From: Acidobacteriota bacterium
GTDB lineage: Bacteria; Acidobacteriota; UBA6911; RPQK01; CBDBID01
Direction of reading: 5' to 3'
Assembly (NCBI GenBank): GCA_965205565.1
Contig: CBDBID010000040.1
Coordinates: forward strand, 111,451-175,450
DNA: 64,000 nucleotides
Part shown: piece by piece, positions 7,616 through 46,854 of the stretch
How the letters are laid out: every line of letters begins with the position of its first letter
How positions within the stretch are numbered: position 1 is the stretch's first letter
Made by a program: the position numbers and the translations under genes
Notes under the pieces: model-generated
Database searches by the model: none
Told to the model about the DNA's origin: nothing
What the model saw: the letters and a program-made list of their open reading frames with translations, nothing else

Positions 7616-9254
7616 CCGACATTCCTCATATCAACTTCGGATGTGAGTTCCTCTGACCTCTACATGATGAATGATCAAAACCTATCAGTCCCCCAACCTT
7701 GAATCAACCGTTCCTTCCCCATCCTTCGGCTGAAAAGGGCCTGTGATCACTGGTTTTCAAGATGCTTTTGGCAAAATCTGATAATCGGAGACACCTCTCC
7801 AGTTGCTCGATCAGAAACACTGAACGCTAAGCTGTACTCCATCTCAATCGGTCAATCCGAGACAATAGCTCGGCCCATATCTCCTGGCTTACCGCGACCT
7901 CCGCCATCTGAAATGTGACGATCCGGCTATGCCAAACTACCTTCGCTCCGATCTTGATCAGCTTAGTCAATAGGCTGCGAAGGGACCAGTGTTTGATGCT
8001 TCTAGGGAGGACCAGCCGCCGCAGGAAATTGCCCAGGTTATAGGCCAAAACGAACAGACCCAACCTCACCTGATTCGGGACAAAGCGCTGGCAGGACAGC
8101 CGTGTCCAGTTCAACGCATACTTGCCTTCCTTGATCCACTGCTCGACGGTGCCACGCCCATTGTAAAAGTGAACCACCCCTGGAGCTTGCGCGCTCATAT
8201 TGGTCACGATGAAACCGACTCTCGGAAAGAGTTCGCCGCGATGCCACTCGACCTTGGCAATCACCCGTCGAGGCCGGTCCCAACTGGCGGCTTGATAGCT
8301 GAAATCGGCAAACCAGACGACGGGTTTTCGGGGTGGACGACCCACTGGCCGGGTCAGCAGGTGTTCAATCTTTTCTTGAAGCACCTGGTTGGCGGGAAGC
8401 CGGATGGCATACAAAAAGCCTTTCTTCTCCAGGTATTGATAAATCTCCGGCTTGGCGAAGGCGGCATCCCCCCGAAAGTATTTGCGGACTTTCTTCTTCT
8501 CGTAGCGAGCCACGATTGGTTCCAGTAGCTCCTTCCAGCGATCCGCGCTGTGAACGTTGCCGGGGCGAAGCAAGGCACCTTCGCAATCTCCGAACTGGTT
8601 AAAACAAAACAGGGGATGGTAGCAGGTGCATCCAAAATGGCCGTTGTAGGCAGAGTCTTCTTGCTCGCCATGGACCGGGCTGGCTGAACTGTCCATATCC
8701 AGAATGATTCGTCGATGAGCGGTCTTCTCCAGTGCTCGTTCCACCCATTGGCCATTGACTTCCGAAAGGGCTTTGAGGTTGTCCTTAACAGACAGCATCT
8801 GGGTCTCAAATCGACCCATTGTGTTGGCACTGGCGGCATTCTTCTTGTCGATCTTCTTTCCAGTGATCCTCCGCATAGTCGGATCCACCGATAAACGATG
8901 ACCATCGTTGACATCTTCATAGCCAGCCAGGCGGCTGTATACTGATTGGCGCAGCAACGACGCGAGGTGGTGCTGGATGTTGCGCCCGGTCCGCGAATCG
9001 TCAAAAACTGAGGGTACACTATCGAATAAAGCCAACGCCTCGTCCAGGTCACGATAGGCGAGAAGTCCGGCATCCGATGTGACCTTTGCCCCATGAAATT
9101 CAAGCCTCAGACTGCCATCAATACCAAGCTTCATACCTTCACCCTTTGGGTTAGCCATTTCTTGCCCTCTTTCATAGATTATATCTGCTGTAATTATAAT
9201 GGGTTAGGGTGATATAGGGAGGCACGATGAGTGTCCCATATGGTGAATGGGGAT
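7616..9254 (-). mobile_element. IS1380-family insertion sequence, copy 1 (intact, ~1.64 kb)
   Basis: Terminal IRs GACATTCCTCATATCA (7616 end) and CCCATATGGTGAATGGGGA (9254 end); near-identical copies at 50945-52403 and a decayed one at 39395-40500. Confidence 0.8.
7827..9158 (-). CDS. IS1380-family DDE transposase (443 aa)
   Basis: Family-typical N-terminus ...KVTSDAGLLAYRDLDEALALFD and length; copy at 51040-52191 is identical apart from a C-terminal deletion and 2 aa substitutions. Confidence 0.8.
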   Translation of the reverse strand: MANPKGEGMKLGIDGSLRLEFHGAKVTSDAGLLAYRDLDEALALFDSVPSVFDDSRTGRNIQHHLASLLRQSVYSRLAGYEDVNDGHRLSVDPTMRRITGKKIDKKNAASANTMGRFETQMLSVKDNLKALSEVNGQWVERALEKTAHRRIILDMDSSASPVHGEQEDSAYNGHFGCTCYHPLFCFNQFGDCEGALLRPGNVHSADRWKELLEPIVARYEKKKVRKYFRGDAAFAKPEIYQYLEKKGFLYAIRLPANQVLQEKIEHLLTRPVGRPPRKPVVWFADFSYQAASWDRPRRVIAKVEWHRGELFPRVGFIVTNMSAQAPGVVHFYNGRGTVEQWIKEGKYALNWTRLSCQRFVPNQVRLGLFVLAYNLGNFLRRLVLPRSIKHWSLRSLLTKLIKIGAKVVWHSRIVTFQMAEVAVSQEIWAELLSRIDRLRWSTA

Positions 9255-10281: not shown

Positions 10282-11734
10282 CTAGCAGTCCGTGGTGGAA
10301 GTACGTTTTCTGAGCTCAGGTGGTACCCACCGGTGGAAGCAGCGAAGGGGTCGCTGAGGTGGGTTTTTCGGGCCAAGCAGCCGGAATCAGTCCGAACAGG
10401 CCCTTAAGACGCTTGAACAGCGACAAAATCAGTAGCATTAGGGCGCAAATCCGCCCCTGCAGACCCCGCGGCGTTCCCACACCCAGGCTCTGACGCATCA
10501 GCATCCCCAGATTGAAGGCGCTCACCTGGATCAGCAGTCGCTTCAACACATTCTCATGTCCCCGTACATGCAGCCGTCTCATCCCTCCGCTCCCGTACAG
10601 ATGCGCACAGGGTCGCTCCAGCTGCTCTCCTCGTTGCTGCAGCAGCCGCTGCCCTCGCTCTCCCCGGATGCGCCGCCGATTCGCATACACCGCTTCCTGC
10701 CCCTGCCGGTCTCCTCGCCAGCGTCGCTTCCCTCGCCTCGGTTCGCTCACATAGCTGCGCAGTCCCACCGCATCCAGGTCCACCATCCGCTGCGTGCTGT
10801 GATACCCCTTGTCGGCCACCACCTCTTCGATGCCTCGTCCCTCCGGCAGCGCTTGTTCCACCTTCTCGACCGCTTCCGTCAGGGTCTTCACCATGGTCTG
10901 CGTGTCCCCTTGATCGGCTCCCTGTACCGTCACCGAGACAATCGCTCCGGTCTCCAGATCCACTGCATGCTCCGCCTTGTGCGCCAGGTGCGTCCGCCCG
11001 TCCTTCATTCTGGTAATCCGCGCATCCGCATCATGCGGGTGCTTCCAAACCCGGTTCGATCCTTTGCCCGTGCGCTTGCGGTCCAGTTTGGCCAGATCTT
11101 CCCGTCGCGGCGTCTCAATCCCGGAGGCTTTCGCCAGCTCCATCAAAAACTCTTCATACCCCTGCTCGCTGTCCCGGCGCACGATGCTGCGCAGCGCTGC
11201 ATTCGCTTCCAGCGTAGTGGCATCGATGCCGATCGTCTTGCCCCGCAGCAGGCCGCTCGCCCCGATCCGCTTCAGTACCCAGTCAAAGACTGCTTCGTGG
11301 GTAGCCACATCGATCAGTCGCCGGGTTCGGGAGATCGTGGAGTGATCAGACGGCGACTCGCTCAGTTTCAATCCCAGAAACTCTCGCAGTGCCAGAGAAT
11401 CAGCTGCTCTCCAGGCTATTCCTCGTTCCGATCCGATCCCTTCGAAATACCCCACCAGCAGCAGCCGAAAGTACACTCCCGGAGCCAGGCTCGGTCGCCC
11501 CATCTTGTCTGCATAGAACTTCGCACACAGTCCCTCCACGAAGTCGTCAAAACCGTGTTCGTTGAAAAGGCCATTCAGTCTTTCGTAGAAGGGATGGCCG
11601 GCGGTGCGGGGCAGCTCACTGGTGGCGACCCACAGGTCTTCTTGCTGTCGACGTTTCTTTTTCCCCATTGCCATGGGGTCAGTCTAGTGTCGCTGTGTGA
11701 CCCCTTATCCTCGACTTTCACCACGGGCTGCTAG
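10282..11734 (-). mobile_element. IS5/IS1182-family insertion sequence, copy A (1453 bp)
   Basis: Imperfect 20-bp IRs CTAGCAGTCCGTGGTGGAAG / CTTTCACCACGGGCTGCTAG; second copy at 41235-42686 with >99% identity. Confidence 0.8.
10316..11674 (-). CDS. IS5/IS1182-family transposase (452 aa, DUF772 N-terminal domain + DDE)
   Basis: FYADKMGRPSLAPGVYFRLLLVGYFEGIGSERGIAWRAADSL is the InsH-N/DUF772 signature; ADKGYHS DDE region. Confidence 0.8.
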   Translation of the reverse strand: MAMGKKKRRQQEDLWVATSELPRTAGHPFYERLNGLFNEHGFDDFVEGLCAKFYADKMGRPSLAPGVYFRLLLVGYFEGIGSERGIAWRAADSLALREFLGLKLSESPSDHSTISRTRRLIDVATHEAVFDWVLKRIGASGLLRGKTIGIDATTLEANAALRSIVRRDSEQGYEEFLMELAKASGIETPRREDLAKLDRKRTGKGSNRVWKHPHDADARITRMKDGRTHLAHKAEHAVDLETGAIVSVTVQGADQGDTQTMVKTLTEAVEKVEQALPEGRGIEEVVADKGYHSTQRMVDLDAVGLRSYVSEPRRGKRRWRGDRQGQEAVYANRRRIRGERGQRLLQQRGEQLERPCAHLYGSGGMRRLHVRGHENVLKRLLIQVSAFNLGMLMRQSLGVGTPRGLQGRICALMLLILSLFKRLKGLFGLIPAAWPEKPTSATPSLLPPVGTT

Positions 11735-12114: not shown

Positions 12115-13062
12115 TCACATACTCCCCACTAAATCCTTATACCGCAAACGTTTCCCGTCCATGCCCTTCGCTACTGAGGCCATCTGGTCAATGGTATCCA
12201 AGGATCGGATGTTGTGCCGACCGGAGAACTCATTGACATACCGCTGCAGGTGCTTCTCGCTCATGCGGTGGTAGGTTCCGTAGTAGCCACGCTTCAGGAG
12301 CGCCCAGAAGCTCTCAATCCCGTTGGTGTGGGCCTGTCCCTTGACAAATTCACGGACGCTGTGACGGACGGAACTATGCTCGAAATCCAGCCAGAGCCGA
12401 TTGTAACCGCTGTGATCGTCCGTGTAGACCGTTGATCCTGGCTTGACTCGCTCCTGGATAAATCCTTCTAGTTCTTCCTGGGTGGTTCCCTGGATGACTG
12501 TGGCACTGACACGGTTGGTTTCACGATCCTTGACGCCAGCGACCGGAATCTTGCCCACGCCCCCACGACCAGCGTGAAGCCTCTTGCTAGGATGCTTGTT
12601 CTTCTCCTTGCCGCCGATGTACGTTTCGTCCACTTCGACCGGGCCGGAAAGGATCTTGTCGCCAAAGTCGAACCCTTCCCGTATGCGCTGCATCATGTGC
12701 CAGGCTGATTTCTGAGTGATGCCGAGTTCCCGGTGGACCTTCATGCTGGAGATGCCTTTGAGGTTGGTGGTCGCCATGTAAAGGACTATGGCCCAGTCCC
12801 GAATGCGGATGTTGCTGGAATGCATGGCCGTACCCTTGCGGACGCTGAAGTACTTCCGGCAATCCTTGCAGCGGTAGGGCATGGTTTTGTGATTGACTCG
12901 TGAGTACCTTTTGGACTCGCAATCAGGGCAGTGGATTCCGTTAGGCCATCTCTGCTCCTCAAACCACTTCTCAGCGGCTTCATCGGTTGGGAAAATGTCG
13001 AATAACTCTGTGATCGTCAGCCCTTTGCGGTCGGACCTTACGGGTGCTTTTGCCTTCTTCAT
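12115..13062 (-). CDS. IS1595-family (ISXO2-like) transposase
   Basis: N-terminal zinc ribbon CPDCES...CKDCRKYFS plus DDE region VEVDETYIGGKEKNKH; Met start at 13062 (MKKAKAP...), 316 aa. Confidence 0.75.
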   Translation of the reverse strand: MKKAKAPVRSDRKGLTITELFDIFPTDEAAEKWFEEQRWPNGIHCPDCESKRYSRVNHKTMPYRCKDCRKYFSVRKGTAMHSSNIRIRDWAIVLYMATTNLKGISSMKVHRELGITQKSAWHMMQRIREGFDFGDKILSGPVEVDETYIGGKEKNKHPSKRLHAGRGGVGKIPVAGVKDRETNRVSATVIQGTTQEELEGFIQERVKPGSTVYTDDHSGYNRLWLDFEHSSVRHSVREFVKGQAHTNGIESFWALLKRGYYGTYHRMSEKHLQRYVNEFSGRHNIRSLDTIDQMASVAKGMDGKRLRYKDLVGSM

Positions 13063-13250
13063 GGAAACTATAGTACCATGATAGTCTGACAGTTTTGGAA
13101 ACTTAGGTATATAATTCCCATTCTTTTTGTCATCGCATCTCCAGGCACTTCGCCAGGCCATGGACCCCTGGGTCAAACATGCCCGAACCCGGGAAGAAAG
13201 GACCGCCGAACTACAGAGACATTTGACGGTACTGCCCAAGGGTTCGGTGA

Positions 13251-20406: not shown

Positions 20407-21954
20407 CTAGTGACGGAAATGCCGCCTGCCGGTGAAGACCATGACTAGATCTTTTCCGTCCGCCATTTCTACGATCTCCGGGTCGCGGACGGAGCCTCCT
20501 GGCTGAATGATTGCCTGAATGCCGGCTTGCGCGGCGGCCTCGACACCATCGGTGAAAGGGAAGAAGGCATCACTGGCCATGACCGCACCGGTGACCGGTT
20601 GCTGAGCCTTCTCGGTTGCCAGGCGTACTGAATCCACACGGCTCATCTGTCCGGCTCCGATCCCCACGGTCTGGCCATTGTGGGCGATCACGACGGCGTT
20701 GGACTTGACGTGCCTGCAGATGGTCCAGGCAAATTTTAATTCCGCCAGGATGGTTTCGTCGGGAACCCGGCGAGTCACTATCTTCCAGCTGTCGGATTCT
20801 TCTTGATGACCGTCTCGATCCTGAACCAGGAAGCCCCCAGTCACCTTCTTGAAGTCCAAAGGCTCGGGCAGGTTCCGCGTCGGAGCGATTTCCATGACGC
20901 GCAGATTCTTCTTCCGAGCGAAGATCTCCCGAGCTTCTTCATGATAGCCGGGGGCGATGACCGCTTCCACGAAGAGGGCGGCCATGGCCGTTGCCGTATC
21001 CCGGTCAACGGAACGGTTGAATCCGATCACAGACCCGAAGGCGGAAACCGGATCGCAGGCCAGAGCCTTTTCATAGGCGGCTAAAGGTGTTTCTCCCATG
21101 GCCGCGCCGCAGGGGTTGTTGTGTTTGATGATGGCGCACATGGACGGATGCTCAAAATCACAGCAAACCTGCCAGGCGGCTTCCAGATCCAGGTAGTTGT
21201 TAAAGGACAGCTCCTTGCCCTGCAGCTGCGCTGCCGCTACCAGTCCTCTGGTGGGTAACCGAGAAGCATAGAGTGCCCCCCGCTGGTGAGGGTTCTCCCC
21301 GTAACGAAGCAGCGTCTGGCACTCCAGTTTCAGATGGATTACCGGGGGCAGCTCTTCGGGTTCTCCTGCGGTGTTCTGGAAGTACTCGGAGATGGCTGCG
21401 TCATAGGCGGCGGTGTGCTGAAAAGCCCGGGTGGCGAGACGCTGACGCGTCTTCATCCCGGTCTGCGCGGAGTTGGTTTGCAGTTCCTCGATCAGCCCGT
21501 CATAGTCAGAAGGATCGATCAGCACCGTCACGTGCTGGTGATTCTTGGCGGCGGCGCGGATCAGGGTGGGTCCCCCAATGTCGATCTGTTCAATCGCTTC
21601 GGACGGTTGAATGTCTGGTTTGGCCACCGTCTCTGCGAAAGGGTAGAGATTGACCACCACAAGTCCGATGGGCGGAATCTCCTGATCACGAAGGACCTGG
21701 AGGTCGTCCTCGTGATCCTGACGTGCCAGGATGCCCGCGTGAATACGCGGGTGAAGGGTCTTGACCCGACCTGCCAGTATTTCGGGAAAACCGGTGTGTT
21801 GAGAGACGAGGGTGACGGGAACGCCCGCCTTCTGGAGGGCTCGGGCGGTGCCTCCTGTCGACAGAATCTGGATTCCCAGCCCGGCCAGAGAAGCGGCCAG
21901 TGCTTCAATACCTCTCTTGTCGGACACGCTTAGAAGCGCTAGTTCAATACCCAT
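20407..21954 (-). CDS. purH: bifunctional AICAR transformylase / IMP cyclohydrolase PurH
   Basis: MGIELALLSVSDKRGIEALAASLAGLGIQILSTGGTA (MGS-like domain) followed by the AICARFT domain; 515 aa. Confidence 0.9.
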   Translation of the reverse strand: MGIELALLSVSDKRGIEALAASLAGLGIQILSTGGTARALQKAGVPVTLVSQHTGFPEILAGRVKTLHPRIHAGILARQDHEDDLQVLRDQEIPPIGLVVVNLYPFAETVAKPDIQPSEAIEQIDIGGPTLIRAAAKNHQHVTVLIDPSDYDGLIEELQTNSAQTGMKTRQRLATRAFQHTAAYDAAISEYFQNTAGEPEELPPVIHLKLECQTLLRYGENPHQRGALYASRLPTRGLVAAAQLQGKELSFNNYLDLEAAWQVCCDFEHPSMCAIIKHNNPCGAAMGETPLAAYEKALACDPVSAFGSVIGFNRSVDRDTATAMAALFVEAVIAPGYHEEAREIFARKKNLRVMEIAPTRNLPEPLDFKKVTGGFLVQDRDGHQEESDSWKIVTRRVPDETILAELKFAWTICRHVKSNAVVIAHNGQTVGIGAGQMSRVDSVRLATEKAQQPVTGAVMASDAFFPFTDGVEAAAQAGIQAIIQPGGSVRDPEIVEMADGKDLVMVFTGRRHFRH

Positions 21955-22141
21955 GAGATCTCTCCGCCGAGCAGCAAGAGCTCATACTAGTGTTGACCCC
22001 TGTCAAAGTCCAGGTGACACGTGGCATGTGGTCCGGGGGGAGCAAAGACCGGAAAAAGGGGAAGAAAAAAGTCCGGGCAGTGTCTCAGTTTGATTAATCG
22101 GCCTATTGTGTCTGCCCGGCAGTAAGTGGTAGGCTCTGTCC

Positions 22142-22369
22142 ATGGCAAGAGGACCGAAAGGCGAATGGAGGCCCACAGACCCGTTAGCATGCGCTGTGCA
22201 TTGCGCGAAGTTGGCTACAGGTGAGATTCAAGAGACCCACTCAGATCCCAACCAGGTGGCCACCCGCAACCGCGCCAGCAAGAGCGGCAAGGCCCGCGCC
22301 GCCTCTCTCTCACCGAAGAGGCGTAGCGAAATTGCTAAGGCTGGTGCGAGTGCTCGGTGGGACCGATAG
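22142..22369 (+). CDS. hypothetical small basic protein (75 aa)
   Basis: Lies at the edge of a lower-GC insert and converges on the PIN gene; no motif. Confidence 0.25.
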   Translation: MARGPKGEWRPTDPLACAVHCAKLATGEIQETHSDPNQVATRNRASKSGKARAASLSPKRRSEIAKAGASARWDR

Positions 22370-22370
22370 A

Positions 22371-22889
22371 TCATTTATCGTGCTGCCCCTTGAGAACCAC
22401 ACCGAACAAGGGACCATAAATAGACTCGTCCGGGACAATAATCTCCAGCGTCCTACCGTCACGACACTTAACCTTGCCGTTTAACCCTAACAAATCATTC
22501 CCGTCGTAGGTGTGCATTGCGTCAGAGTTCCAATATAAAGCCGTAGCTAGGTGTATGGCGTCCGGAGCTTTCTTGAGTTCTTCATGTTCTCTAAGAAGCT
22601 TCCGTGCGTTATCGGCTACTATGTGATCTAGGTCCGCCAAGATCACATGCTGCTGCCGAAACATTTCAGATATTTCGGTTTCTTTCGTGTCGGACAGTGG
22701 CTTTGCGTCATTTTGCTCGCACTTCTTCTTGAACACTTCTACTTGACTAAGCACAGACGTAAGTATCTCGCATGATCCATTCTCCGCCCTGGACCATACC
22801 TCACGCAAAGCTATGTACTTCTCTGTCTCCCGATTCAACAGTCCAAGCCATGCACAAGCATCCCAATAATATCTTTTTGTTTCTGGCAA
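22371..22889 (-). CDS. PIN-domain protein (VapC-like nuclease fold)
   Basis: Four acidic residues spaced as in PIN domains (YYWDACAWL..., ...QVEVF..., PDAIHLATALY, TYDGNDLL); start overlaps the stop of the upstream 276-aa gene; ~50% GC. Confidence 0.5.
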   Translation of the reverse strand: MPETKRYYWDACAWLGLLNRETEKYIALREVWSRAENGSCEILTSVLSQVEVFKKKCEQNDAKPLSDTKETEISEMFRQQHVILADLDHIVADNARKLLREHEELKKAPDAIHLATALYWNSDAMHTYDGNDLLGLNGKVKCRDGRTLEIIVPDESIYGPLFGVVLKGQHDK

Positions 22890-22890
22890 T

Positions 22891-23721
22891 CTATTCGCCC
22901 CACAGGTCGGCTAGATGTCGTTGCGGCGATTGGCCCCCAGTGGGGTCAGCTATGTTATCAATATCAACTTCACCAACTGTCACAGGGTGAATCTCGTCCA
23001 CTGTTAGTTGTGCAATCTTTCCGGTGCCTTTTCTCTCGATCGTTCCTGATACGATGCAACGCTGGCCTGTCCAAACTTCTCCCCAGTTGTGTTCCGTGCC
23101 GATCTGTTCTACACGATCATTGGGGATCACACATAAAATCTTCTCTCCCGATATGCGATGCAATAGCTTGAAGGCTGGCTTGCCATAGTGTTTGATCGCT
23201 TCGATTACCTTACCCTCAATAGTGCCTAGATTTTTGATGGGCAAATATTCAGCCGAAAACTCGCTGTGGCTGATAACATCTAAAGCAGCTTCAGCACGAT
23301 CAGTAACGAGTTCCAGCGGAGCTTTGTTATCTAATAAAACCACATCGGTTTGGGAGACTCCATTAACATTTCTCTCAAGCCAGCCTTTAAGCCTATTCCT
23401 AGTGCTTGAAGTAGTCCAATCTGGCAATGCGCGGTCTTCCAATACAGCACTAAGAAGTTCGTAGCATCGTTCCCTTGCTTGACGAGCATCTGACTCGATA
23501 TCCGGCCACTCCTGCGGATTGGCGCTGGCAGCTTCTGCAACCGTTCTAAATGGGCTACTCATGGTTGCACTTACAAGACACCACTTTAATTTCGAGCGCG
23601 CATCGTCAATAGAAGAAGCAACGACTAACTCAATAGAATCGAGAACCTGCTGCATGGCGTCTTGAACAGTCATGACCCCGCCTTCGCGAGCATGGACGAT
23701 AATTGTAATTCTCTCAGCCAT
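22891..23721 (-). CDS. hypothetical protein (276 aa), co-operonic partner of the PIN-domain gene
   Basis: Ends 1 nt before the PIN gene start; low GC; no recognisable domain. Confidence 0.45.
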   Translation of the reverse strand: MAERITIIVHAREGGVMTVQDAMQQVLDSIELVVASSIDDARSKLKWCLVSATMSSPFRTVAEAASANPQEWPDIESDARQARERCYELLSAVLEDRALPDWTTSSTRNRLKGWLERNVNGVSQTDVVLLDNKAPLELVTDRAEAALDVISHSEFSAEYLPIKNLGTIEGKVIEAIKHYGKPAFKLLHRISGEKILCVIPNDRVEQIGTEHNWGEVWTGQRCIVSGTIERKGTGKIAQLTVDEIHPVTVGEVDIDNIADPTGGQSPQRHLADLWGE

Positions 23722-23941
23722 TTTGCCTCATACTTTTACAAACACCTTGCAATTCACCGTCGATTCCGTAACTCTCCTGTCCGGCCCGAGCCGACTCAGG
23801 ATCACTTGCGAATTGCTCTCAACGTCGGACAACCTGGACGTGGTTTTCGTTCTCAACAAAGTTTAGGAAGCCGCGGGAAAATAATAGCACAGAGCTCACC
23901 GACAGGTTGACGGCTATGCTTGCAGATGTTATACTTTAATT

Positions 23942-24814
23942 ATGAACAAGCTCCCGGCAAAGAGGCGGGCCAAGATCATTCGGTTGCTGGTCGAGGGTGC
24001 TTCGCTCCGCTCTATAAGCCGGATCGAGGATGTCTCAATCAACACCGTCTCCAAGCTGTTGGTCGATGCGGGTGAGGCGTGCGTGAACTTCCACAACAAC
24101 CATGTGCAGGGCGTGAAGGCCAAGCGCATCCAAGTAGACGAGATTTGGCAGTTCTGCTACGCGAAGGAGAAGAACGTGGATAAGGCCAAGGCCGCGCCGG
24201 AGGGATCGGGCGACACATGGACCTGGACAGCGATTGACGCCGATTCCAAGCTGATCGTTTCATGGTTGCTGGGAGAGCGCGACAGCCGCTCCGCCTATCA
24301 CTTCATTGCGGACCTGGCCGAGCGGCTCACCGATCGCGTGCAACTCACCTCAGACGGCCTCGGCCTCTACAGGTGGGCCGTGGAGTGGGTGTTCGGATCG
24401 GACGTCGACTACGCCCAGCTGGTGAAGATTTTCGGTGCGCCCGTCGAGGGAGAGAAACGCTACAGCCCCGCCACCTGCAAGGGCACCAAGCGATCCGCCG
24501 TGATGGGCAACCCCCACCCCGACCACGTCTCCACTTCCTATGTCGAGCGGCACAATCTGACCATGCGGATGTCGATGCGCCGGTTCACACGCCTGACAAA
24601 TGCGTTTTCTAAGAAACTGCGGAACCATGCTCTCGCGCTCGCGCTATACTTCGTCTACTACAATTTCTGCCGGATTCACAAGACGCTTCGCATGACACCG
24701 GCTATGGCCGCTGGCCTCACGACCCAACTGCACGATGCAGAATGGATCGTTGGATTGGTAGACGCACGAGCACCTAAGCCAGCGAAGCCCGGACCGAAGG
24801 GGCCTAGAAAATAA
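23942..24814 (+). CDS. IS1-family (single-ORF type) transposase
   Basis: N-terminal HTH (RRAKIIRLLVEGASLRSISRIEDVSINTVSKLL), DDE region DEIWQFC...WTWTAIDADSKLIVSW, C-terminal YNFCRIHKTLRMTPAMAAGL typical of IS1 InsB. Confidence 0.6.
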   Translation: MNKLPAKRRAKIIRLLVEGASLRSISRIEDVSINTVSKLLVDAGEACVNFHNNHVQGVKAKRIQVDEIWQFCYAKEKNVDKAKAAPEGSGDTWTWTAIDADSKLIVSWLLGERDSRSAYHFIADLAERLTDRVQLTSDGLGLYRWAVEWVFGSDVDYAQLVKIFGAPVEGEKRYSPATCKGTKRSAVMGNPHPDHVSTSYVERHNLTMRMSMRRFTRLTNAFSKKLRNHALALALYFVYYNFCRIHKTLRMTPAMAAGLTTQLHDAEWIVGLVDARAPKPAKPGPKGPRK

Positions 24815-25069
24815 TCAAACTGAGACACTACCAAAGTCCGAGCAACCTTGACTTCTCGGGAGTGCGTGTCTATAGTTTAGCGCGCTCGGGGATTCTGGGG
24901 GTGTCGGGGAGGAGTATCCTACCGTTGGAAGCAGAGCAGCGAGGCTCGAACTTCCTTCAATAATATCATAGGTGGTTTTGTTGCCGCTATCCGGCAGCCT
25001 GCGCGGAGGGTCGCCCATAAGGGCGGTGCAGCTTGGGGCAGGAGGGGCAGACCTGCAAGGGGATGTGTG

Positions 25070-25303
25070 ATGAAGAAATCGGGTAAGGTCAAGTGGTTCA
25101 ACAACGCCAAAGGCTATGGATTCATCGAGCATGAAGAAGTGGAGGCCGACATCTTCGTCCACTACTCCGCGATCCAGGGAGAAGGGTATCGCACGCTCAA
25201 GGAAGGCGAGGAAGTCGAGTTTGCATTGAAAAAGGGTCCCAAGGGACCCCAGGCAGAGAATGTAGTACGGCTTTTCTTGGGCGAAGTGGAAGTAGCCGGC
25301 TAG
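25070..25303 (+). CDS. cspA: cold-shock protein (CspA family)
   Basis: [23 protein letters not shown]...[10 protein letters not shown]: RNP1/RNP2 cold-shock domain. Confidence 0.85.
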
Positions 25304-41234: not shown

Positions 41235-42686
41235 TAGCAGTCCGTGGTGGAAGTACGTTTTCTGAGCTCAGGTGGTACCCACCGGTGGAAGCAGCGAAGG
41301 GGTCGCTGAGGTGGGTTTTTCGGGCCAAGCAGCCGGAATCAGTCCGAACAGGACCTTAAGACGCTTGAACAGCGACAAAATCAGTAGCATTAGGGCGCAA
41401 ATCCGCCCCTGCAGACCCCGCGGCGTTCCCACACCCAGGCTCTGACGCATCAGCATCCCCAGATTGAAGGCGCTCACCTGGATCAGCAGTCGCTTCAACA
41501 CATTCTCATGTCCCCGTACATGCAGCCGTCTCATCCCTCCGCTCCCGTACAGATGCGCACAGGGTCGCTCCAGCTGCTCTCCTCGTTGCTGCAGCAGCCG
41601 CTGCCCTCGCTCTCCCCGGATGCGCCGCCGATTCGCATACACCGCTTCCTGCCCCTGCCGGTCTCCTCGCCAGCGTCGCTTCCCTCGCCTCGGTTCGCTC
41701 ACATAGCTGCGCAGTCCCACCGCATCCAGGTCCACCATCCGCTGCGTGCTGTGATACCCCTTGTCGGCCACCACCTCTTCGATGCCTCGTCCCTCCGGCA
41801 GCGCTTGTTCCACCTTCTCGACCGCTTCCGTCAGGGTCTTCACCATGGTCTGCGTGTCCCCTTGATCGGCTCCCTGTACCGTCACCGAGACAATCGCTCC
41901 GGTCTCCAGATCCACTGCATGCTCCGCCTTGTGCGCCAGGTGCGTCCGCCCGTCCTTCATTCTGGTAATCCGCGCATCCGCATCATGCGGGTGCTTCCAA
42001 ACCCGGTTCGATCCTTTGCCCGTGCGCTTGCGGTCCAGTTTGGCCAGATCTTCCCGTCGCGGCGTCTCAATCCCGGAGGCTTTCGCCAGCTCCATCAAAA
42101 ACTCTTCATACCCCTGCTCGCTGTCCCCGCGCACGATGCTGCGCAGCGCTGCATTCGCTTCCAGCGTAGTGGCATCGATGCCGATCGTCTTGCCCCGCAG
42201 CAGGCCGCTCGCCCCGATCCGCTTCAGTACCCAGTCAAAGACTGCTTCGTGGGTAGCCACATCGATCAGTCGTCGGGTTCGGGAGATCGTGGAGTGATCA
42301 GACGGCGACTCGCTCACTTTCAATCCCAGAAACTCTCGCAGTCCCAGAGAATCAGCTGCTCTCCAGGCAATTCCTCGTTCCGATCCGATCCCTTCGAAAT
42401 ACCCCACCAGCAGCAGCCGAAAGTACACTCCCGGAGCCAGGCTCGGTCGCCCCATCTTGTCTGCATAGAACTTCGCACACAGTCCCTCCACGAAGTCGTC
42501 AAAGCCGTGTTCGTTGAAAAGGCCATTCAGTCTTTCGTAGAAGGGATGGCCGGCGGTGTGGGGCAGCTCACTGGTGGCGACCCACAGGTCTTCTTGCTGT
42601 CGACGTTTCTTTTTCCCCATTGCCATGGGGTCAGTCTAGTGTCGCTGTGTGACCCCTTATCCTCGACTTTCACCACGGGCTGCTAG
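41235..42686 (-). mobile_element. IS5/IS1182-family insertion sequence, copy B (1452 bp)
   Basis: Same IRs as copy A; 4 aa differences in the transposase; same orientation as copy A (direct repeats ~29.5 kb apart). Confidence 0.8.
41268..42626 (-). CDS. IS5/IS1182-family transposase (452 aa)
   Basis: Near-identical to 10316-11674. Confidence 0.8.
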   Translation of the reverse strand: MAMGKKKRRQQEDLWVATSELPHTAGHPFYERLNGLFNEHGFDDFVEGLCAKFYADKMGRPSLAPGVYFRLLLVGYFEGIGSERGIAWRAADSLGLREFLGLKVSESPSDHSTISRTRRLIDVATHEAVFDWVLKRIGASGLLRGKTIGIDATTLEANAALRSIVRGDSEQGYEEFLMELAKASGIETPRREDLAKLDRKRTGKGSNRVWKHPHDADARITRMKDGRTHLAHKAEHAVDLETGAIVSVTVQGADQGDTQTMVKTLTEAVEKVEQALPEGRGIEEVVADKGYHSTQRMVDLDAVGLRSYVSEPRRGKRRWRGDRQGQEAVYANRRRIRGERGQRLLQQRGEQLERPCAHLYGSGGMRRLHVRGHENVLKRLLIQVSAFNLGMLMRQSLGVGTPRGLQGRICALMLLILSLFKRLKVLFGLIPAAWPEKPTSATPSLLPPVGTT

Positions 42687-43073: not shown

Positions 43074-43099
43074 GGGTAACTACTTACTTGACATACCAA
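43074..43099. repeat. left terminal inverted repeat of the IS1595-family unit
   Basis: GGGTAACTACTTACTTGACATACCAA; reverse complement present at 46829-46854. Confidence 0.7.
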
Positions 43100-43125
43100 A
43101 ATAACCCTGCTATTATTGTCTCATC

Positions 43126-44079
43126 ATGAGGTATCCAAAGTCATTAGTTGAGGCTGTCCGGTTCTTTTCAGACTTTGAGCGTTGCCGCCAATACATGGTG
43201 AAACTTCGCTGGCCCGACGGCAAGGTGACTTGCCCACGGTGCGGCGGGGATCGAGTCAAGTGGCTGGCAAAGGCTCGGGTATGGAAGTGCTACGCAAAGC
43301 ACAAGCAGCCCACCTTCACGCTCAAGACGGGAACGATCTTCGAGGAATCTCCTATCGGTCTGGACAAGTGGACTACGGCAATCTGGCTGGTCGCAAATTG
43401 CAAAAACGGGATTTCTTCTCTTGAGATGGCCCGCCATCTGGGAGTGACCCAGAAGACGGCATGGTTCATGAATCACCGCATCCGCAAGGCCATGCAGGAC
43501 GGGTCGTTCGTCAAGCTGGGCGGAGAGATCGAAGTCGATGAGACATTCATCGGTGGAAAGGCTCGCAATATGCACGTCTCCGCAAGGAAGCGCCGGATCA
43601 CTGGCACTGGCGGGAAGGACAAAACCGCCGTGCTGGGAATGCTGGAACGAAACGGAAGGGTCCGAACTTCCGTGATAGAGGATCGTAAGAGGCGGACCAT
43701 CCATCCCCAGGTCCGTGACCAGGTGGAGGCCGGTTCCGCACTCTATTCCGATGAGTTACTTTCATACGAAGGGCTGGCATCCGATTACGCCCACCAGGTC
43801 ATCAATCACGCAGTCGAATACGTCAGGGGTGAGGTTCATACCAATGGCATGGAGAACTACTGGTCGCTGCTCAAGCGCGGCCTCAATGGAACCTATGTCT
43901 CGGTCGAGCCGTTTCACCTGTTCCGTTACCTAGCAGAGCAAGCCTTCCGGTTCAACAACCGCGAGGCTGAGGGTGGAGACTTCGAGCGTTTCTCGATTGC
44001 GATGGCACAGGCAGTTGGTCGCAGGCTTACTTATGACGAACTGTCGGGGAGGGCACCTAGTCAAGCGACGGTTAACTAA
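43126..44079 (+). CDS. IS1595-family transposase (317 aa)
   Basis: Zinc ribbon CPRCGGDRVKWLAKARVWKC and DDE region EVDETFIGGKARNMH; diverged from the 12115-13062 copy. Confidence 0.75.
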   Translation: MRYPKSLVEAVRFFSDFERCRQYMVKLRWPDGKVTCPRCGGDRVKWLAKARVWKCYAKHKQPTFTLKTGTIFEESPIGLDKWTTAIWLVANCKNGISSLEMARHLGVTQKTAWFMNHRIRKAMQDGSFVKLGGEIEVDETFIGGKARNMHVSARKRRITGTGGKDKTAVLGMLERNGRVRTSVIEDRKRRTIHPQVRDQVEAGSALYSDELLSYEGLASDYAHQVINHAVEYVRGEVHTNGMENYWSLLKRGLNGTYVSVEPFHLFRYLAEQAFRFNNREAEGGDFERFSIAMAQAVGRRLTYDELSGRAPSQATVN

Positions 44080-44338
44080 GAAGGAGTCCGAGAGGCAGGG
44101 TCGCGGGAAGCGCCGCGACCGCTAAAGATTGATTTCATCACTGTTTGGAATCTTCTGAACGCCTCCGGCCCTTCGATCATGTTCAGCTCACTTGCCGATT
44201 TCTTGGCCTTCTGCTGAGAAGATGAGCGACTGGTACTCGCCTTAGCTTCTCTTTGCCGTGGTGGTCTTCCCAAGCGATCCTCCTCTCGAAGCAACTTTCC
44301 CCAAGAAAAGTGCATCTTACACTTTTTCAGGGAGGTTT

Positions 44339-45154
44339 TCAATCATGGGTACCGCTTTCGCAACCAAAGACCTTGGAATCAAACTCGCCAATGATCTCGG
44401 AGACACGTGTCCAGGTTTTCCAGAGAAGTTGTACAAGGTTCCATCTAACCCCGGAGACAAGGTGGAACTTCTCAAACCCTACCGAGAAGCAAGGATATGC
44501 CTTTATCTCCTCGTCCGCTCGGCCAACGGGGAACGTTCCAAAAATCACCTCATCTTCTTTCAGCAACGCGTTCCCGTCCACGTGGAACAGCGGTGTGCTC
44601 TTGTTCCCTGTGTGTGCGGCCAATGTGCCGAACACAATAAGCGTTGTGGGGATGATTCTATGCTTGTCGGTGTTGTGGAGTTCTCTGAGAACCCAGAGCA
44701 TATCATCGTGCGGGGCACGGGGGATTCGTTCGTAAGGCTGTTCCCTCTCTATGAGAGATGCTTGGAGCGGGGATACACCTTCTATCATTCCGCCCGATCT
44801 GGATCTATACCCGCTCCTGGTTTTGAAGATGGGAAACTGGAGTCTTCCCTCTTTCTGGAGATCAAGACTGGGTTCGTTCAAAAGCACGATCTGATGAACG
44901 AGATGGTCAAGACTAGATCGCAAGTGGTACAGGGCCTCCCCGGCCAACAAGACGATATTGATATCGAGCTTGAAGCTGGGGTTTCTGACTGCGGTAAGCG
45001 TTACGGCGGGACTCCCTTTCTCCGATTTTTCATCGACTCGGATGGTGTATGGTTCACGCTTTGTAAGCTGGTCAAGGTGCCCATTCAGGTCGTTGATTAT
45101 GGTTTTGGCCCGTTCAATTTTGAGGCGGATTCCTTCTAGCGGATCAATCATCAC
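44339..45154 (-). CDS. hypothetical passenger protein (271 aa), co-operonic with the methyltransferase-HNH gene
   Basis: Its start overlaps the MTase stop (ATGA, 45151-45154); contains RELHNTDKHR (possible HEPN-like Rx4-6H); is fully overlapped by an antisense 293-aa ORF. Confidence 0.4.
   Translation of the reverse strand: MMIDPLEGIRLKIERAKTIINDLNGHLDQLTKREPYTIRVDEKSEKGSPAVTLTAVRNPSFKLDINIVLLAGEALYHLRSSLDHLVHQIVLLNEPSLDLQKEGRLQFPIFKTRSGYRSRSGGMIEGVSPLQASLIEREQPYERIPRAPHDDMLWVLRELHNTDKHRIIPTTLIVFGTLAAHTGNKSTPLFHVDGNALLKEDEVIFGTFPVGRADEEIKAYPCFSVGFEKFHLVSGVRWNLVQLLWKTWTRVSEIIGEFDSKVFGCESGTHD
44345..45139 (+). CDS. alternative antisense ORF (264 aa from the ATG at 44345) overlapping the 271-aa gene
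   Basis: GGGAGG RBS 8 nt upstream of the ATG; a stop-free stretch of ~290 codons in ~50% GC DNA is unexpected by chance. Confidence 0.25.
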   Translation: MGTAFATKDLGIKLANDLGDTCPGFPEKLYKVPSNPGDKVELLKPYREARICLYLLVRSANGERSKNHLIFFQQRVPVHVEQRCALVPCVCGQCAEHNKRCGDDSMLVGVVEFSENPEHIIVRGTGDSFVRLFPLYERCLERGYTFYHSARSGSIPAPGFEDGKLESSLFLEIKTGFVQKHDLMNEMVKTRSQVVQGLPGQQDDIDIELEAGVSDCGKRYGGTPFLRFFIDSDGVWFTLCKLVKVPIQVVDYGFGPFNFEADSF

Positions 45155-46801
45155 TCAAAAAGGCTCGGATTCATCTCGTGTTCCCGCCGGATCTTCCGCA
45201 TGATCGGGTTCTCTCTTTCTGAATCCGCCATGTAGCCCAGCTTCTTGTTCTGCCTTCTCAGTCCGATCAGCGTTAGCGTGTTGCTCTTGAGCCGGTTGCA
45301 CGGGCTGCAGAGCAGAATCCGGTTTGACAGTTCGTTCGAGCCGCCGTCCGAGCGCGGCTGCCGGTGGTCCAGTTCCAGGTAACGGGGATCGTCAAACTTC
45401 CGGTCGCACCCCTGGCACTTGGGGCCGTGCTCGATGATGAGCTGGTGAAACATCGCCGTCCGGCTGAGGGTGGATTCTCTCGGCTCGTGCTTGGAGTATT
45501 TCACCTTGAGGAATGGGGCCGCAATCTGTCCGTCATCGGTGCGCTTTGGGGTCCGCTTACGATAGTAAATCTTATCGAACGCAAGCTTGTCCCTAGCGTG
45601 TCCCTTCACCTCAAAATACTCTTCCCTGAATCTGTCCAGAACTACCTCATGCGCCCTGTCCCAAATGTCAATGCCTACCCATTGGCGATCAGCCAACTCA
45701 GCCGCAACGCAGGTAGTCGCACAGCCACAGAAGGGGTCAAGCACCATGCTTCCCTTCTTGGAGCTGGCTTGGTTGATTCGGTTGTAAAGGGTTAGTGGCT
45801 TCTGTGTTGCGTAGCCGGTGCTTTCATCTTTCCCGGCAGGTGCAATGTCGGTCCACAGATTGGGAACGGCTTGTTGCGGAATGCCTTGCAAATAGCGTTT
45901 GAGTCTCGGCTTTCCGTTGCGTGTCCAGTGTATTAACCCTACCTTGTCTAGTGCGTGGCACTTGCCGAGTTGGTCAAGTTTGCTGTAGCCGCTTCCCAAC
46001 AAGTCTTTTTCCCAATCTGGCAGTTTCGATATTTGCGGTGGCGCCCATGCTCTCCCGGCTGGCGGCGGCATGTCATTGAACGCCCTATAAGCCTCTTCGC
46101 TGCCCGCCTTGCCGCCGCTTAAATCAGTTGTTGTAAATCGTCCGCGCTCATCTTTTTGGGTGTAAAGAGCATCAATCTGATCTTCTGTCATGGGCGTATA
46201 GTCTCCCCTGAAAACGAACTTGCCGCTTTTCGGGTAGAACAGGATGCAATCCGTGATCGCTTCGTACTTGCGAATGGACAGCGGGTGTGCGTTGGTGCGT
46301 CTCCAAACAATCTCATTCTTGAAGCTCTTCCACCCGAATATCGCATCCATAGATCGCCTTGAGGTAGTGGCTGGCCGTGGGGTCGCAGTGGAGGTACAGC
46401 GAACCGGTAGGCTTTAACACGCGGTGCATTTCCAAGAGCCGCACGGCCATGAAACACAGAAAGGCTCCCATGTCTGACCCAACTTCCTCCCTGGACCGTT
46501 TCAGGTTCTTCTTGGTCTGTCTCATGTAGATCGCGTTAGCCGCGTCAATCACTTCCCAGACAGGAGGGAAATCGTCTTTGATCTTGTCCACCCAGTCTTG
46601 ATGCACGTCCCGATCCCAGGACCAGCGGTCCTGAAATCGTGCACCCTGTGCTAGGCTGTCGGGCGTGGCGTGAAAGTCTCGACCCTTGTTGAACGGTGGA
46701 TCGGTGGCGATGAGGTCCACGGTCCCGCTGTTCATGGCACGAAGGAACAACAGGTTATCGCCGTGGAATAGAGTGCGGTTTTTCCAGTTGGCTGTAGGCA
46801 T
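45151..46801 (-). CDS. N4/N6 DNA methyltransferase (PF01555 type) fused to a C-terminal HNH endonuclease domain; frameshift in the 46313-46350 overlap
   Basis: N-terminal part (46313-46801): DLIATDPPFN (motif IV). C-terminal part (45151-46350): DPFCGCATT (motif I) then ELDHRQPRSDGGSNELSNRILLCSPCNRLKS (HNH). The two ORFs overlap by 38 nt in different frames. Confidence 0.6.
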
Positions 46802-46828
46802 CCCAGAAGGGATGCTAGACTAGGTATG

Positions 46829-46854
46829 TTGGTATGTCAAGTAAGTAGTTACCC
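46829..46854. repeat. right terminal inverted repeat of the IS1595-family unit
   Basis: TTGGTATGTCAAGTAAGTAGTTACCC is the reverse complement of 43074-43099. Confidence 0.7.

What the first reader, a model, noticed from the sequence alone, without database searches (positions are those of the whole stretch)
22371..23721. Low-GC two-gene module: 276-aa unknown protein followed by a PIN-domain nuclease, next to an IS1-family element
The module is ~50% GC in a ~62% GC neighbourhood, inserted between purH and cspA together with an IS1-family transposase (23942-24814).

The downstream gene has the four acidic residues of a PIN/VapC nuclease at canonical spacing. The upstream partner is much larger than classical VapB antitoxins and has no recognisable domain.

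Gene overlap indicates translational coupling. The arrangement is that of a toxin-antitoxin or phage-defence pair of an unusual type.
Basis: partly seen in the sequence, partly recalled or inferred. Interest (0 to 1): 0.6.

Follow-up and report, generated by a model that had tools for sequence, protein, structure and literature searches.

The report
PIN nuclease pair carried by IS
The two flagged genes are the cargo of a 2.76-kb jumping gene (an IS1-family insertion sequence) that landed between purH and cspA; the cargo is a widespread, always-paired, uncharacterised "OB-fold protein + PIN nuclease" module that repeatedly rides on insertion sequences and most likely acts as a toxin-antidote or defence pair.

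Summary
A 276-aa gene (22891-23721, -) is followed by a PIN-domain gene (22371-22889, -). The pair has 47.7% GC against 57-58.5% in the flanks.

The pair is inside the IS1-family element, not beside it. 21-nt inverted repeats (22076-22096 / 24812-24832) and an 8-bp target duplication (AAAGTCCG) bound one 2,757-bp unit. Three sister genomes show the empty site. A second copy elsewhere has its own duplication.

The 276-aa protein is not an orphan. It belongs to a family of about 305 clusters, all about 280 aa, with no Pfam or PADLOC match. In all 27 loci that extend far enough downstream, a PIN homologue follows it directly.

In 13 of 25 genome loci the pair sits directly after an IS1595-family transposase. 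In at least four of these, repeats and duplications enclose all three genes.

AlphaFold (pLDDT 88.6) predicts a C-terminal OB fold. Sister IS1-family elements carry MazF-like, Fic/Doc or peptidase cargo in the same slot.

The best reading is a VapBC-like toxin-antidote or abortive-defence module with a new, large OB-fold partner, carried by transporter insertion sequences. The mobile-element part is shown. The toxin-antidote function is inferred.

The parts
22068..22075 (.). Left copy of the 8-bp target-site duplication, AAAGTCCG.
   Evidence: The sequence was read directly. The same 8-mer follows the right repeat. The sister genomes L034, L035 and L036 carry a single copy at the uninterrupted site.
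22076..22096 (+). Left terminal inverted repeat (IRL), GGCAGTGTCTCAGTTTGATTA.
   Evidence: It matches 24812-24832 at 20 of 21 positions as an inverted repeat. The same repeat bounds the L001 copy, related plasmid elements and at least 120 metagenome stretches.
22142..22369 (+). 75-aa small ORF. It is a backbone gene of this IS1-family group, not part of the cargo.
   Evidence: It is 41-44% identical to small ORFs at the same position next to IRL in L032 and L033. It was found in 26 of 120 metagenome stretches that carry the repeat. Its GC is 61.4%, like the transposase. Its function is unknown.
22371..22889 (-). PIN-domain nuclease gene, 172 aa with a TTG start. This is the presumed toxin or effector.
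   Evidence: Pfam PIN at E 2.3e-9. D10, E51, D110 and D129 are conserved across 34 homologues. There are 129 homologues, some named VapC-family toxin by their sources. dN/dS is 0.37-0.46 among the three close copies.
22891..23721 (-). 276-aa partner gene ('A'). It has an N-terminal alpha/beta region (about residues 1-157), a C-terminal OB fold (about 160-250) and a conserved C-terminal helix (266-274). This is the presumed antidote or regulator.
23722..23941 (.). Divergent intergenic region between the partner gene and the transposase gene. It holds a promoter-like site for the transposase at 23907-23935 (+).
   Evidence: The consensus scan found TTGACG, a 17-nt spacer, then TATACT. The number of such sites in the region is no higher than in shuffled sequence. 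Positions 23722-23874 are absent from the L001 copy.
23942..24814 (+). IS1-family transposase, a single ORF of 290 aa.
   Evidence: PF03400 at 29.2 bits against a cut-off of 24.1. NCBIfam transpos_IS1 at E 1.2e-15, below its curated cut-off. Plasmid relatives at 58-61% identity are annotated 'IS1 family transposase'.
24812..24832 (-). Right terminal inverted repeat (IRR).
24833..24840 (.). Right copy of the 8-bp target-site duplication, AAAGTCCG.

Best explanation
Positions 22076-24832 are one 2,757-bp IS1-family 'transporter' insertion sequence. It transposed as a unit into the purH-cspA intergenic region.

Its backbone is IRL, a small ORF, a cargo slot, a single-ORF transposase and IRR. The cargo slot holds the flagged two-gene operon.

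The operon is a member of a widespread, obligately paired module. A protein of about 280 aa comes first. It has an alpha/beta N-terminal region, an OB-fold nucleic-acid-binding domain and a conserved C-terminal helix. A PIN nuclease of about 170 aa with an intact D-E-D-D active site follows, tightly coupled.

I propose that the pair works like a VapBC-type toxin-antidote module. The PIN protein is an RNase that would arrest growth. The upstream protein binds and holds it inactive. The payoff is either stabilisation of the mobile element and its host replicon (addiction) or an abortive response to infection.

What is shown:
- the element boundaries, the transposition event and the empty site;
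- strict pairing of the two genes;
- the recurrence of the pair as IS cargo;
- the PIN catalytic residues.

What is predicted: the OB fold, from a confident AlphaFold model.

What is inferred:
- that the PIN protein is toxic;
- that the partner neutralises it;
- the biological payoff.
For: Mobile element:
- 21-nt terminal inverted repeats matching at 20 of 21 positions.
- An exact 8-bp duplication, AAAGTCCG, at both ends.
- Three sister genomes with 98-99% identical flanks have the uninterrupted site with one AAAGTCCG.
- L001 holds the same element at an unrelated site with its own 8-bp duplication, CGTTTTTG, and all four ORFs intact.
- No internal repeat copy lies near the transposase start.
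- The same repeat bounds elements from 89-bp MITE-like units to 3.9-kb elements, many with perfect 8-bp duplications.

Pairing of the two genes:
- In 27 of 27 testable loci the partner gene is followed directly by a PIN homologue, at 1-nt spacing or a 4-20-nt overlap.
- Pairwise identities of the two proteins co-vary (r = 0.89; 0 of 2000 permutations reach this value).
- The three PIN-first look-ups all found the partner upstream.

Recurrent IS cargo:
- 13 of 25 genome loci have an IS1595-family transposase directly upstream on the same strand.
- Inverted repeats with 8-bp duplications enclose transposase, partner and PIN in L018, L022, L023 and L025. Inverted repeats also enclose them in L005, L013, L020 and L029.
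- RefSeq annotates the Methylobacterium oryzae pMOC1 copy as IS1595 transposase, hypothetical protein, VapC-family toxin.

Toxin-like reading:
- The PIN tetrad is conserved.
- Gene order and coupling are as in type II toxin-antitoxin systems.
- Sister IS1-family elements carry other toxin or conflict domains in the cargo position. These are PemK/MazF-like, Fic/Doc, XRE plus M78 peptidase, and SDH-type protease.
- Toxin-antitoxin pairs, including PIN toxins, are known passengers of Tn3-family transposons (PMC7157771).

Selection and origin:
- Both cargo genes show dN/dS below 1, at 0.37-0.73.
- Cargo GC is 47.7% against 59.2% for the transposase. Cargo dS is 0.07-0.10 against 0.42 for the transposase between the window and L001. 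The cargo is therefore a separately acquired or exchanged cassette.
Against: - No toxicity, binding or neutralisation has been tested.
- The partner is a 276-aa, well-folded, multi-domain protein. It has none of the DNA-binding modules of classical VapB antitoxins (AbrB, RHH, Phd/YefM, HTH).
- Its most conserved residues sit in the N-terminal region: D21, Q25, D28, W47, the T-N-S-P motif at 54-57, and R117-N118-x-N120-G121. This pattern suggests a specific binding or catalytic site rather than a simple plug.
- An OB fold could equally make it an RNA/DNA-targeting subunit of the nuclease.
- The PIN family is very distant from solved VapC structures. The best PDB profile hit has E 0.26. No NCBIfam VapC model matches.
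- No PADLOC model matches either protein family.
- No relative was found in viral contigs.
- In IS1595 elements the pair is apparently co-transcribed with the transposase. This would also fit a role in transposition.
Confidence: 0.6

Rival explanations
1. The pair is a two-subunit nuclease or abortive-infection defence system, not a classical toxin-antitoxin pair. In this reading the OB-fold protein is the nucleic-acid-sensing or targeting subunit. It would bind phage single-stranded DNA, RNA or a tRNA and so gate or direct the PIN nuclease. Insertion sequences would simply spread the system.
For: - The OB fold resembles SSB, RPA, PriB and the anticodon-binding domains of class IIb aminoacyl-tRNA synthetases.
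- The partner is large, with a highly conserved polar N-terminal region.
- Copies not linked to an IS lie near defence-like genes. By my reading of the ORF translations, these are a TIR-like protein (L015) and a large P-loop protein (L016).
- Sister elements carry other conflict-system cargo.
- The best full-length structural matches are uncharacterised phage proteins.
Against: - No PADLOC model matches any of 59 partner or 34 PIN family members at a meaningful E-value.
- No phage challenge data exist.
- OB-fold similarity is generic, at 10-20% identity.
- The neighbour identifications come from my reading of N-terminal sequences, not from a family search.
Confidence: 0.25
2. The pair is an accessory transposition module. 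The OB-fold protein would bind single-stranded or flap intermediates, and the PIN (FEN-like) nuclease would process them to help IS1595 or IS1 elements move.
For: In IS1595-family elements the order is transposase, partner, PIN on one strand with gaps of 9-83 nt, which suggests one transcript. PIN-like folds include flap endonucleases (my own knowledge).
Against: - Most IS1595 and IS1 elements lack the pair. None of the 24 of 120 metagenome stretches of this IS1 group that encode the transposase carries it.
- The pair occurs with two different transposase families and in opposite orientation.
- 12 of 25 genome loci have no adjacent transposase.
- The domain matches Pfam PIN (PF01850, the VapC type), not a FEN-type family.
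Confidence: 0.08
3. The pair is a decaying or non-functional passenger, or an unrelated island that merely lies beside an insertion sequence.
For: dN/dS of the partner is fairly high between close copies (0.49-0.73). Some related loci carry truncated copies (L008, L028).
Against: - Both ORFs are intact in all three close copies.
- The catalytic residues are conserved.
- The family keeps its full length across 305 clusters.
- The repeats and duplication enclose the pair, and the empty site lacks it.
Confidence: 0.04

Closest known systems
VapBC type II toxin-antitoxin systems (PIN toxin with an upstream antitoxin)
   Same: The downstream gene is a PF01850 PIN domain with the D-E-D-D tetrad. The partner is encoded directly upstream and tightly coupled. 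The two genes are strictly co-inherited. The pair is found on mobile DNA. RefSeq names a homologue of the PIN gene 'VapC family toxin'.
   Different: The partner is 276 aa, against about 70-90 aa for VapB. It has no AbrB, RHH, Phd or HTH domain and instead a predicted OB fold plus a conserved N-terminal domain. The PIN protein is about 170 aa with a conserved C-terminal extension and is barely detectable against solved VapC structures. Toxicity and neutralisation are untested.
Toxin-antitoxin passenger genes of Tn3-family transposons (Lima-Mendez et al. 2020, PMC7157771)
   Same: A toxin-antidote-like pair, including PIN toxins, sits inside a transposable element next to the transposition genes. 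It has been acquired several times independently and exchanged by recombination (here).
   Different: The carriers here are small insertion sequences of 2.5-3.3 kb from the IS1 and IS1595 families, not Tn3-family transposons with resolvases. The antidote family here is not among the six antitoxin families listed in that paper.
Transporter insertion sequences of the IS1595 and IS1 families (Siguier, Gagnevin and Chandler 2009, Res Microbiol 160:232, as cited in PMC3129680)
   Same: These are insertion sequences with terminal inverted repeats and 8-bp duplications that carry passenger genes unrelated to transposition (here).
   Different: I could not read the 2009 paper. I therefore cannot say whether this particular cargo, the partner plus PIN pair, was described there. 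The window element appears to be a new member. This cargo is rare in the IS1-family group: it occurs in none of the 24 of 120 metagenome stretches of this IS group that encode the transposase.
OB-fold nucleic-acid-binding domains (SSB, RPA, PriB; anticodon-binding domain of Asn/Asp/Lys-tRNA synthetases; ExoVII large subunit)
   Different: Sequence identity is only 10-20%. No Pfam OB family matches. Nucleic-acid binding is not shown. The domain is fused to an N-terminal region that gave no clear structural match.

Membership tests
IS1 family insertion sequence (single-ORF type) carrying passengers | A DDE transposase with the IS1-type catalytic domain. | tested here: met
   PF03400 DDE_Tnp_IS1 at 29.2 bits against a cut-off of 24.1. 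Relatives at 58-61% identity are annotated 'IS1 family transposase'. NCBIfam transpos_IS1 scores 58 bits, below its cut-off of 100, so this is a divergent member.
IS1 family insertion sequence (single-ORF type) carrying passengers | Terminal inverted repeats at both ends. | tested here: met
   21-nt arms at 22076-22096 and 24812-24832, matching at 20 of 21 positions. The same arms occur in L001, L032, L033 and at least 120 metagenome stretches.
IS1 family insertion sequence (single-ORF type) carrying passengers | A direct target duplication of 8-9 bp and a demonstrable empty site. | tested here: met
   AAAGTCCG flanks both ends. A single copy is present at the uninterrupted site in L034, L035 and L036. 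Other members have perfect 8-bp duplications.
IS1 family insertion sequence (single-ORF type) carrying passengers | The classical IS1 layout: insA and insB joined by a programmed frameshift in an element of about 770 bp. | tested here: not met
   The transposase is a single 290-aa ORF in a 2,757-bp element. This fits the single-ORF branch of the family (my own knowledge of the ISfinder classification), not IS1 proper.
VapBC type II toxin-antitoxin system | The toxin has a PIN domain with four conserved acidic residues. | tested here: met
   Pfam PIN at E 2.3e-9. D10, E51, D110 and D129 are conserved.
VapBC type II toxin-antitoxin system | The antitoxin is a small protein with an N-terminal DNA-binding domain (AbrB, RHH/MetJ, Phd/YefM or HTH). 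| tested here: not met
   The partner is 276 aa. None of these domains is found in any of 59 family members. The predicted fold is an alpha/beta region plus an OB fold.
VapBC type II toxin-antitoxin system | A bicistronic, translationally coupled operon with the antitoxin first, and strict co-occurrence. | tested here: met
   There is a 1-nt spacer in this window and a 4-20-nt overlap in 24 related loci. Co-occurrence holds in 27 of 27 loci.
VapBC type II toxin-antitoxin system | The toxin arrests growth, the antitoxin neutralises it by direct binding, and the antitoxin autoregulates the operon. | not testable with these tools
   This needs expression, pull-down and EMSA experiments.
Catalogued anti-phage defence systems (PADLOC-DB 2.0) | A match to a defence-system protein model. 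| tested here: not met
   The window proteins have no hit. Across 34 PIN and 59 partner family members there is only one marginal hit each, at E 0.0055 and 0.0076.
OB-fold nucleic-acid-binding superfamily (C-terminal domain of the 276-aa protein) | A five-stranded closed beta-barrel with a helix between strands 3 and 4. | tested here: met
OB-fold nucleic-acid-binding superfamily (C-terminal domain of the 276-aa protein) | Binds single-stranded DNA or RNA. | not testable with these tools
   This needs EMSA or a similar assay.

The most novel reading that the evidence does not exclude
The OB-fold partner plus PIN pair is a previously unrecognised conflict system that has specialised in riding small insertion sequences. 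It is found with two transposase families, IS1595 and IS1. The large partner would be a sensor or targeting subunit rather than a passive antitoxin. Its OB domain would read a nucleic-acid signal, such as phage single-stranded DNA, a tRNA or a transposition intermediate. Its conserved N-terminal domain would gate the PIN nuclease. This would give insertion sequences their own addiction or defence function.
Probability: 0.25. Interest if true: 0.75.

Novelty: new variant of a known kind. Interest (0 to 1): 0.5.

Why it matters
Insertion sequences are usually thought of as a transposase and nothing else. Here a defined two-gene module recurs inside small insertion sequences of two families across Alphaproteobacteria, cyanobacteria and uncultured lineages. 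Sister elements carry other toxin-type cargo in the same slot (MazF-like, Fic/Doc, peptidase).

If the pair is a toxin-antidote or defence module, three things follow:
- A new large OB-fold partner family is added to the PIN/VapC world.
- The idea that toxin-antitoxin pairs are integral to transposons is extended from Tn3 to the smallest mobile elements.
- About 300 'hypothetical protein' clusters that currently lack any Pfam family gain a functional handle.

The finding is also directly testable with simple toxicity and rescue assays.

Tried and rejected
- AlphaFold on the 3-sequence alignment gave pLDDT 35.5 and was unusable. It was repeated with a 59-sequence alignment.
- The word-indexed protein search found only 2 relatives and made the 276-aa protein look like an orphan. 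The exhaustive HMMER search showed this was a sensitivity artefact.
The 6-sequence alignment worked.
- The afdb50 fold library was unavailable.
- Profile searches of the PDB by sequence gave nothing meaningful for the partner and only E 0.26 for the PIN family.
- Rfam found no RNA family in 21800-25200.
- The promoter and terminator scan was not enriched over shuffled sequence.
- I looked for an internal repeat copy near the transposase start, which would make the IS a separate 1-kb unit beside an island. None exists within 5 mismatches.
- I considered that the RES-Xre toxin-antitoxin pair next to the Acidiphilium relative was cargo. It lies outside the right repeat.
- I tested whether the 293-aa ORF in the window's second transporter IS is a distant relative of the partner. 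It is not (hhalign probability 0.1).
- The small ORFs downstream of PIN in IS1595 elements have no counterpart in the window.
- No relative of the partner was found in IMG/VR viral contigs.

Full report
WHAT IS AT THE COORDINATES

Two ORFs lie head to tail on the minus strand. One encodes 276 aa (22891-23721). The other encodes 172 aa (22371-22889, TTG start). The second matches Pfam PIN PF01850 (E 2.3e-9, above the gathering score). In an alignment of 34 homologues, D10, E51, D110 and D129 are invariant or nearly so. This is the canonical PIN acidic tetrad.

The 276-aa protein has no hit in Pfam, NCBIfam, PADLOC or PHROGs. The ORF at 23942-24814 (+) is a divergent single-ORF IS1-family transposase. 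It matches PF03400 above its cut-off. Plasmid relatives at 58-61% identity are annotated 'IS1 family transposase'.

The pair is AT-rich. Its GC is 47.7%, against 57-58.5% in the flanks and 55.8% for the window. That is about 2.2 SD below the mean of same-size windows. In this window the genes do not overlap. The junction reads TAG, one A, then TTG.

THE PAIR IS INSIDE THE INSERTION SEQUENCE

- A 21-nt inverted repeat sits at 22076-22096 and 24812-24832, matching at 20 of 21 positions.
- It is flanked on both sides by the same 8-mer, AAAGTCCG.
- No further copy of the repeat exists near the transposase start. The unit is therefore 2,757 bp.
- Its order is IRL, a 75-aa ORF (+), PIN (-), the 276-aa gene (-), the transposase (+), IRR.

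Three sister genomes (L034, L035, L036) have flanks 98-99% identical to the window. They carry cspA next to purH with a single AAAGTCCG and no insert. This is the empty site.

A 224-kb metagenome contig (L001) carries the same element at an unrelated site. It has the same repeats, its own 8-bp duplication (CGTTTTTG) and all four ORFs intact.

The repeat motif GGTAGTGTCTCAGTTTGA occurs in at least 120 metagenome stretches. Where both ends are present, it bounds units from 89-bp MITE-like copies through 1.3-1.5 kb up to 3.9 kb. About ten of these have perfect 8-bp duplications.

The 75-aa ORF is 41-44% identical to small ORFs at the same position in related elements on Acidiphilium and Hoeflea plasmids. 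It recurs in 26 of the 120 stretches. It is therefore backbone, and the cargo slot lies between it and the transposase.

THE CARGO IS A SEPARATELY ACQUIRED CASSETTE

- Its GC is 47.7%, against 59.2% for the transposase and 61.4% for the small ORF.
- Between the window and L001, synonymous divergence is 0.07-0.10 for the cargo and 0.42 for the transposase.
- Homology among the window, L001 and a third short contig (L002) begins at the start codon of the 276-aa gene.
- None of the 24 of 120 metagenome stretches that encode this transposase carries the pair.

THE 276-AA PROTEIN IS NOT AN ORPHAN

The word-indexed search found two relatives. An exhaustive HMMER search of 1.84 billion representatives found 305 clusters at E <= 1e-3 and 197 at E <= 1e-10. 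Nearly all are 270-290 aa and match over their full length. All sources call them 'hypothetical protein', with no Pfam domain.

THE PAIR IS OBLIGATE AND RIDES INSERTION SEQUENCES

I examined 30 loci: 25 from one genome per species, plus metagenome contigs and a plasmid. The partner gene is followed directly by a PIN homologue in all 27 loci that extend far enough. The two genes usually overlap by 4-20 nt.

Pairwise identities of the two proteins co-vary (r = 0.89; 0 of 2000 permutations reach this). The three look-ups that started from PIN homologues also found the partner upstream.

In 13 of the 25 genome loci an IS1595-family transposase lies directly upstream on the same strand. Terminal inverted repeats with 8-bp duplications enclose transposase, partner and PIN in L018, L022, L023 and L025. 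Inverted repeats also enclose them in L005, L013, L020 and L029.

RefSeq annotates the Methylobacterium oryzae pMOC1 copy as IS1595 family transposase, hypothetical protein, type II toxin-antitoxin system VapC family toxin, hypothetical protein.

The closest non-identical relatives of the window's pair are IS1595-borne (L003, L004: 41-42% identity for the partner, 59-60% for PIN). So the same cassette has been taken up by two transposase families. Here it sits in the opposite orientation to the transposase.

STRUCTURE OF THE PARTNER

Residues 1-157 form an alpha/beta region that gave no clear PDB match. This region carries the most conserved residues of the family: D21, Q25, D28, W47, T-N-S-P at 54-57, and R117-N118-x-N120-G121. 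A conserved helix at 266-274 ends the protein.

The best full-length structural matches are uncharacterised phage proteins with modest TM-scores of 0.34-0.44. I treat this only as a lead.

MECHANISM

The best-supported reading is a VapBC-like toxin-antidote module carried as IS cargo. In its favour:
- a PIN active site kept intact;
- the antidote-first, coupled gene order;
- strict co-inheritance;
- repeated capture by mobile elements.

Sister elements of the same IS1-family group also carry other toxin or conflict-type cargo in the same slot. These are PemK/MazF-like plus a P63C-domain protein, Fic/Doc, XRE plus M78 peptidase, and an SDH-type protease. There is also precedent. Toxin-antitoxin pairs, including PIN toxins, are passengers of Tn3-family transposons and have been proposed to stabilise the transposon itself (PMC7157771).

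Against a simple VapB-like antitoxin:
- the partner's size and fold;
- its lack of any classical antitoxin DNA-binding domain;
- its conserved polar N-terminal site.

An OB fold next to a PIN nuclease could equally be a targeting or sensing subunit. I therefore keep a defence or two-subunit-nuclease rival at about 0.25. A transposition-accessory role is less likely, because most members of both IS families lack the pair and 12 of 25 genome loci have no adjacent transposase.

No toxicity, binding or defence test was possible here. No PADLOC model matches either family.

COMPARISON AND NOVELTY

Transporter insertion sequences in the IS1595 and IS1 families are a known concept (Siguier et al. 2009, cited in PMC3129680). 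PIN toxins are well known. The following appear to be undescribed in what I could search:
- the partner family itself, which has no Pfam family and is annotated as hypothetical everywhere;
- its OB-fold architecture;
- its obligate pairing with a divergent 170-aa PIN subfamily;
- the recurrence of this cassette as cargo of small insertion sequences from two families.

I rate it a new variant of a known kind, of moderate interest. It is well defined, widespread and directly testable.

Noticed in passing
window 43074-46854: A second transporter insertion sequence, of the IS1595 family. It has 30-nt inverted repeats (97% complementary) and an 8-bp duplication, CTAAATTG. It carries the transposase (43126-44079, +), an unknown 293-aa ORF (44258-45139, +) that is not related to the 276-aa family, and a DNA methylase plus HNH nuclease (45151-46801, -), possibly split into two ORFs.
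   Followed up: partly
window 10316-11674 (-) and 41268-42626 (-): Two ORFs of the same length (452 aa) that look like copies of one transposase. The first was scanned and has DUF772 and DDE_Tnp_1 domains; the second was not scanned. Each lies about 0.5 kb from an IS1595-family transposase. The window is very rich in insertion sequences.
   Followed up: no
window 7827-9158 (-), 12115-13239 (-), 46931-47764 (-): A DDE_Tnp_1_4 transposase, a further IS1595-family transposase with no inverted repeats found around it, and a Prim-Pol protein just outside the second transporter IS.
   Followed up: no
window 22142-22369 (+): A 75-aa ORF ending in ...RRSEIAKAGASARW. It is a conserved backbone gene of this IS1-family group: 41-44% identical to ORFs at the same position in L032 and L033, and present in 26 of 120 metagenome stretches. 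Its function is unknown. The same C-terminal motif appears at the N-terminus of a 342-aa P63C-domain cargo protein in L053.
   Followed up: partly
window 23722-23874: A 153-nt stretch directly upstream of the 276-aa gene is present here but absent from the otherwise 95% identical L001 copy. Homology among the three close copies starts at the gene's start codon, which suggests a cassette junction there.
   Followed up: partly
L032:1267-3900, L033:555-4778, L053:2988-6151, L132:44-3134, L109:4818-8267: Sister IS1-family transporter elements with the same terminal repeat carry different cargo. These are an SDH-type ClpP-like protease, XRE plus M78 (IrrE-like) peptidase, PemK/MazF-like toxin plus a P63C protein, and a Fic/Doc protein. 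Several have perfect 8-bp duplications. The same repeat also bounds 89-bp MITE-like units (L100, L147).
   Followed up: partly
L003:4506-4661, L004:4548-4694, L005:4503-4640, L011:6344-6460, L023:6429-6539: In IS1595-borne copies a conserved 45-51-aa ORF follows the PIN gene on the same strand, with the pattern ...KFKQAARE.ETDD....F...L.K..K.KP.... It may be a third component of the module. It is absent from the window's copy.
   Followed up: no
L014-L017: Nearly identical copies of the pair occur in metagenome-assembled genomes assigned to Cyanobium, Prochlorococcaceae, Cyanobacteriota and Nanopelagicales (Actinomycetota). They have no IS1595 transposase. By my reading of the ORF translations, they lie next to an integrase-like or IS630-like gene. 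This suggests very recent horizontal spread or a binning mix-up.
   Followed up: no
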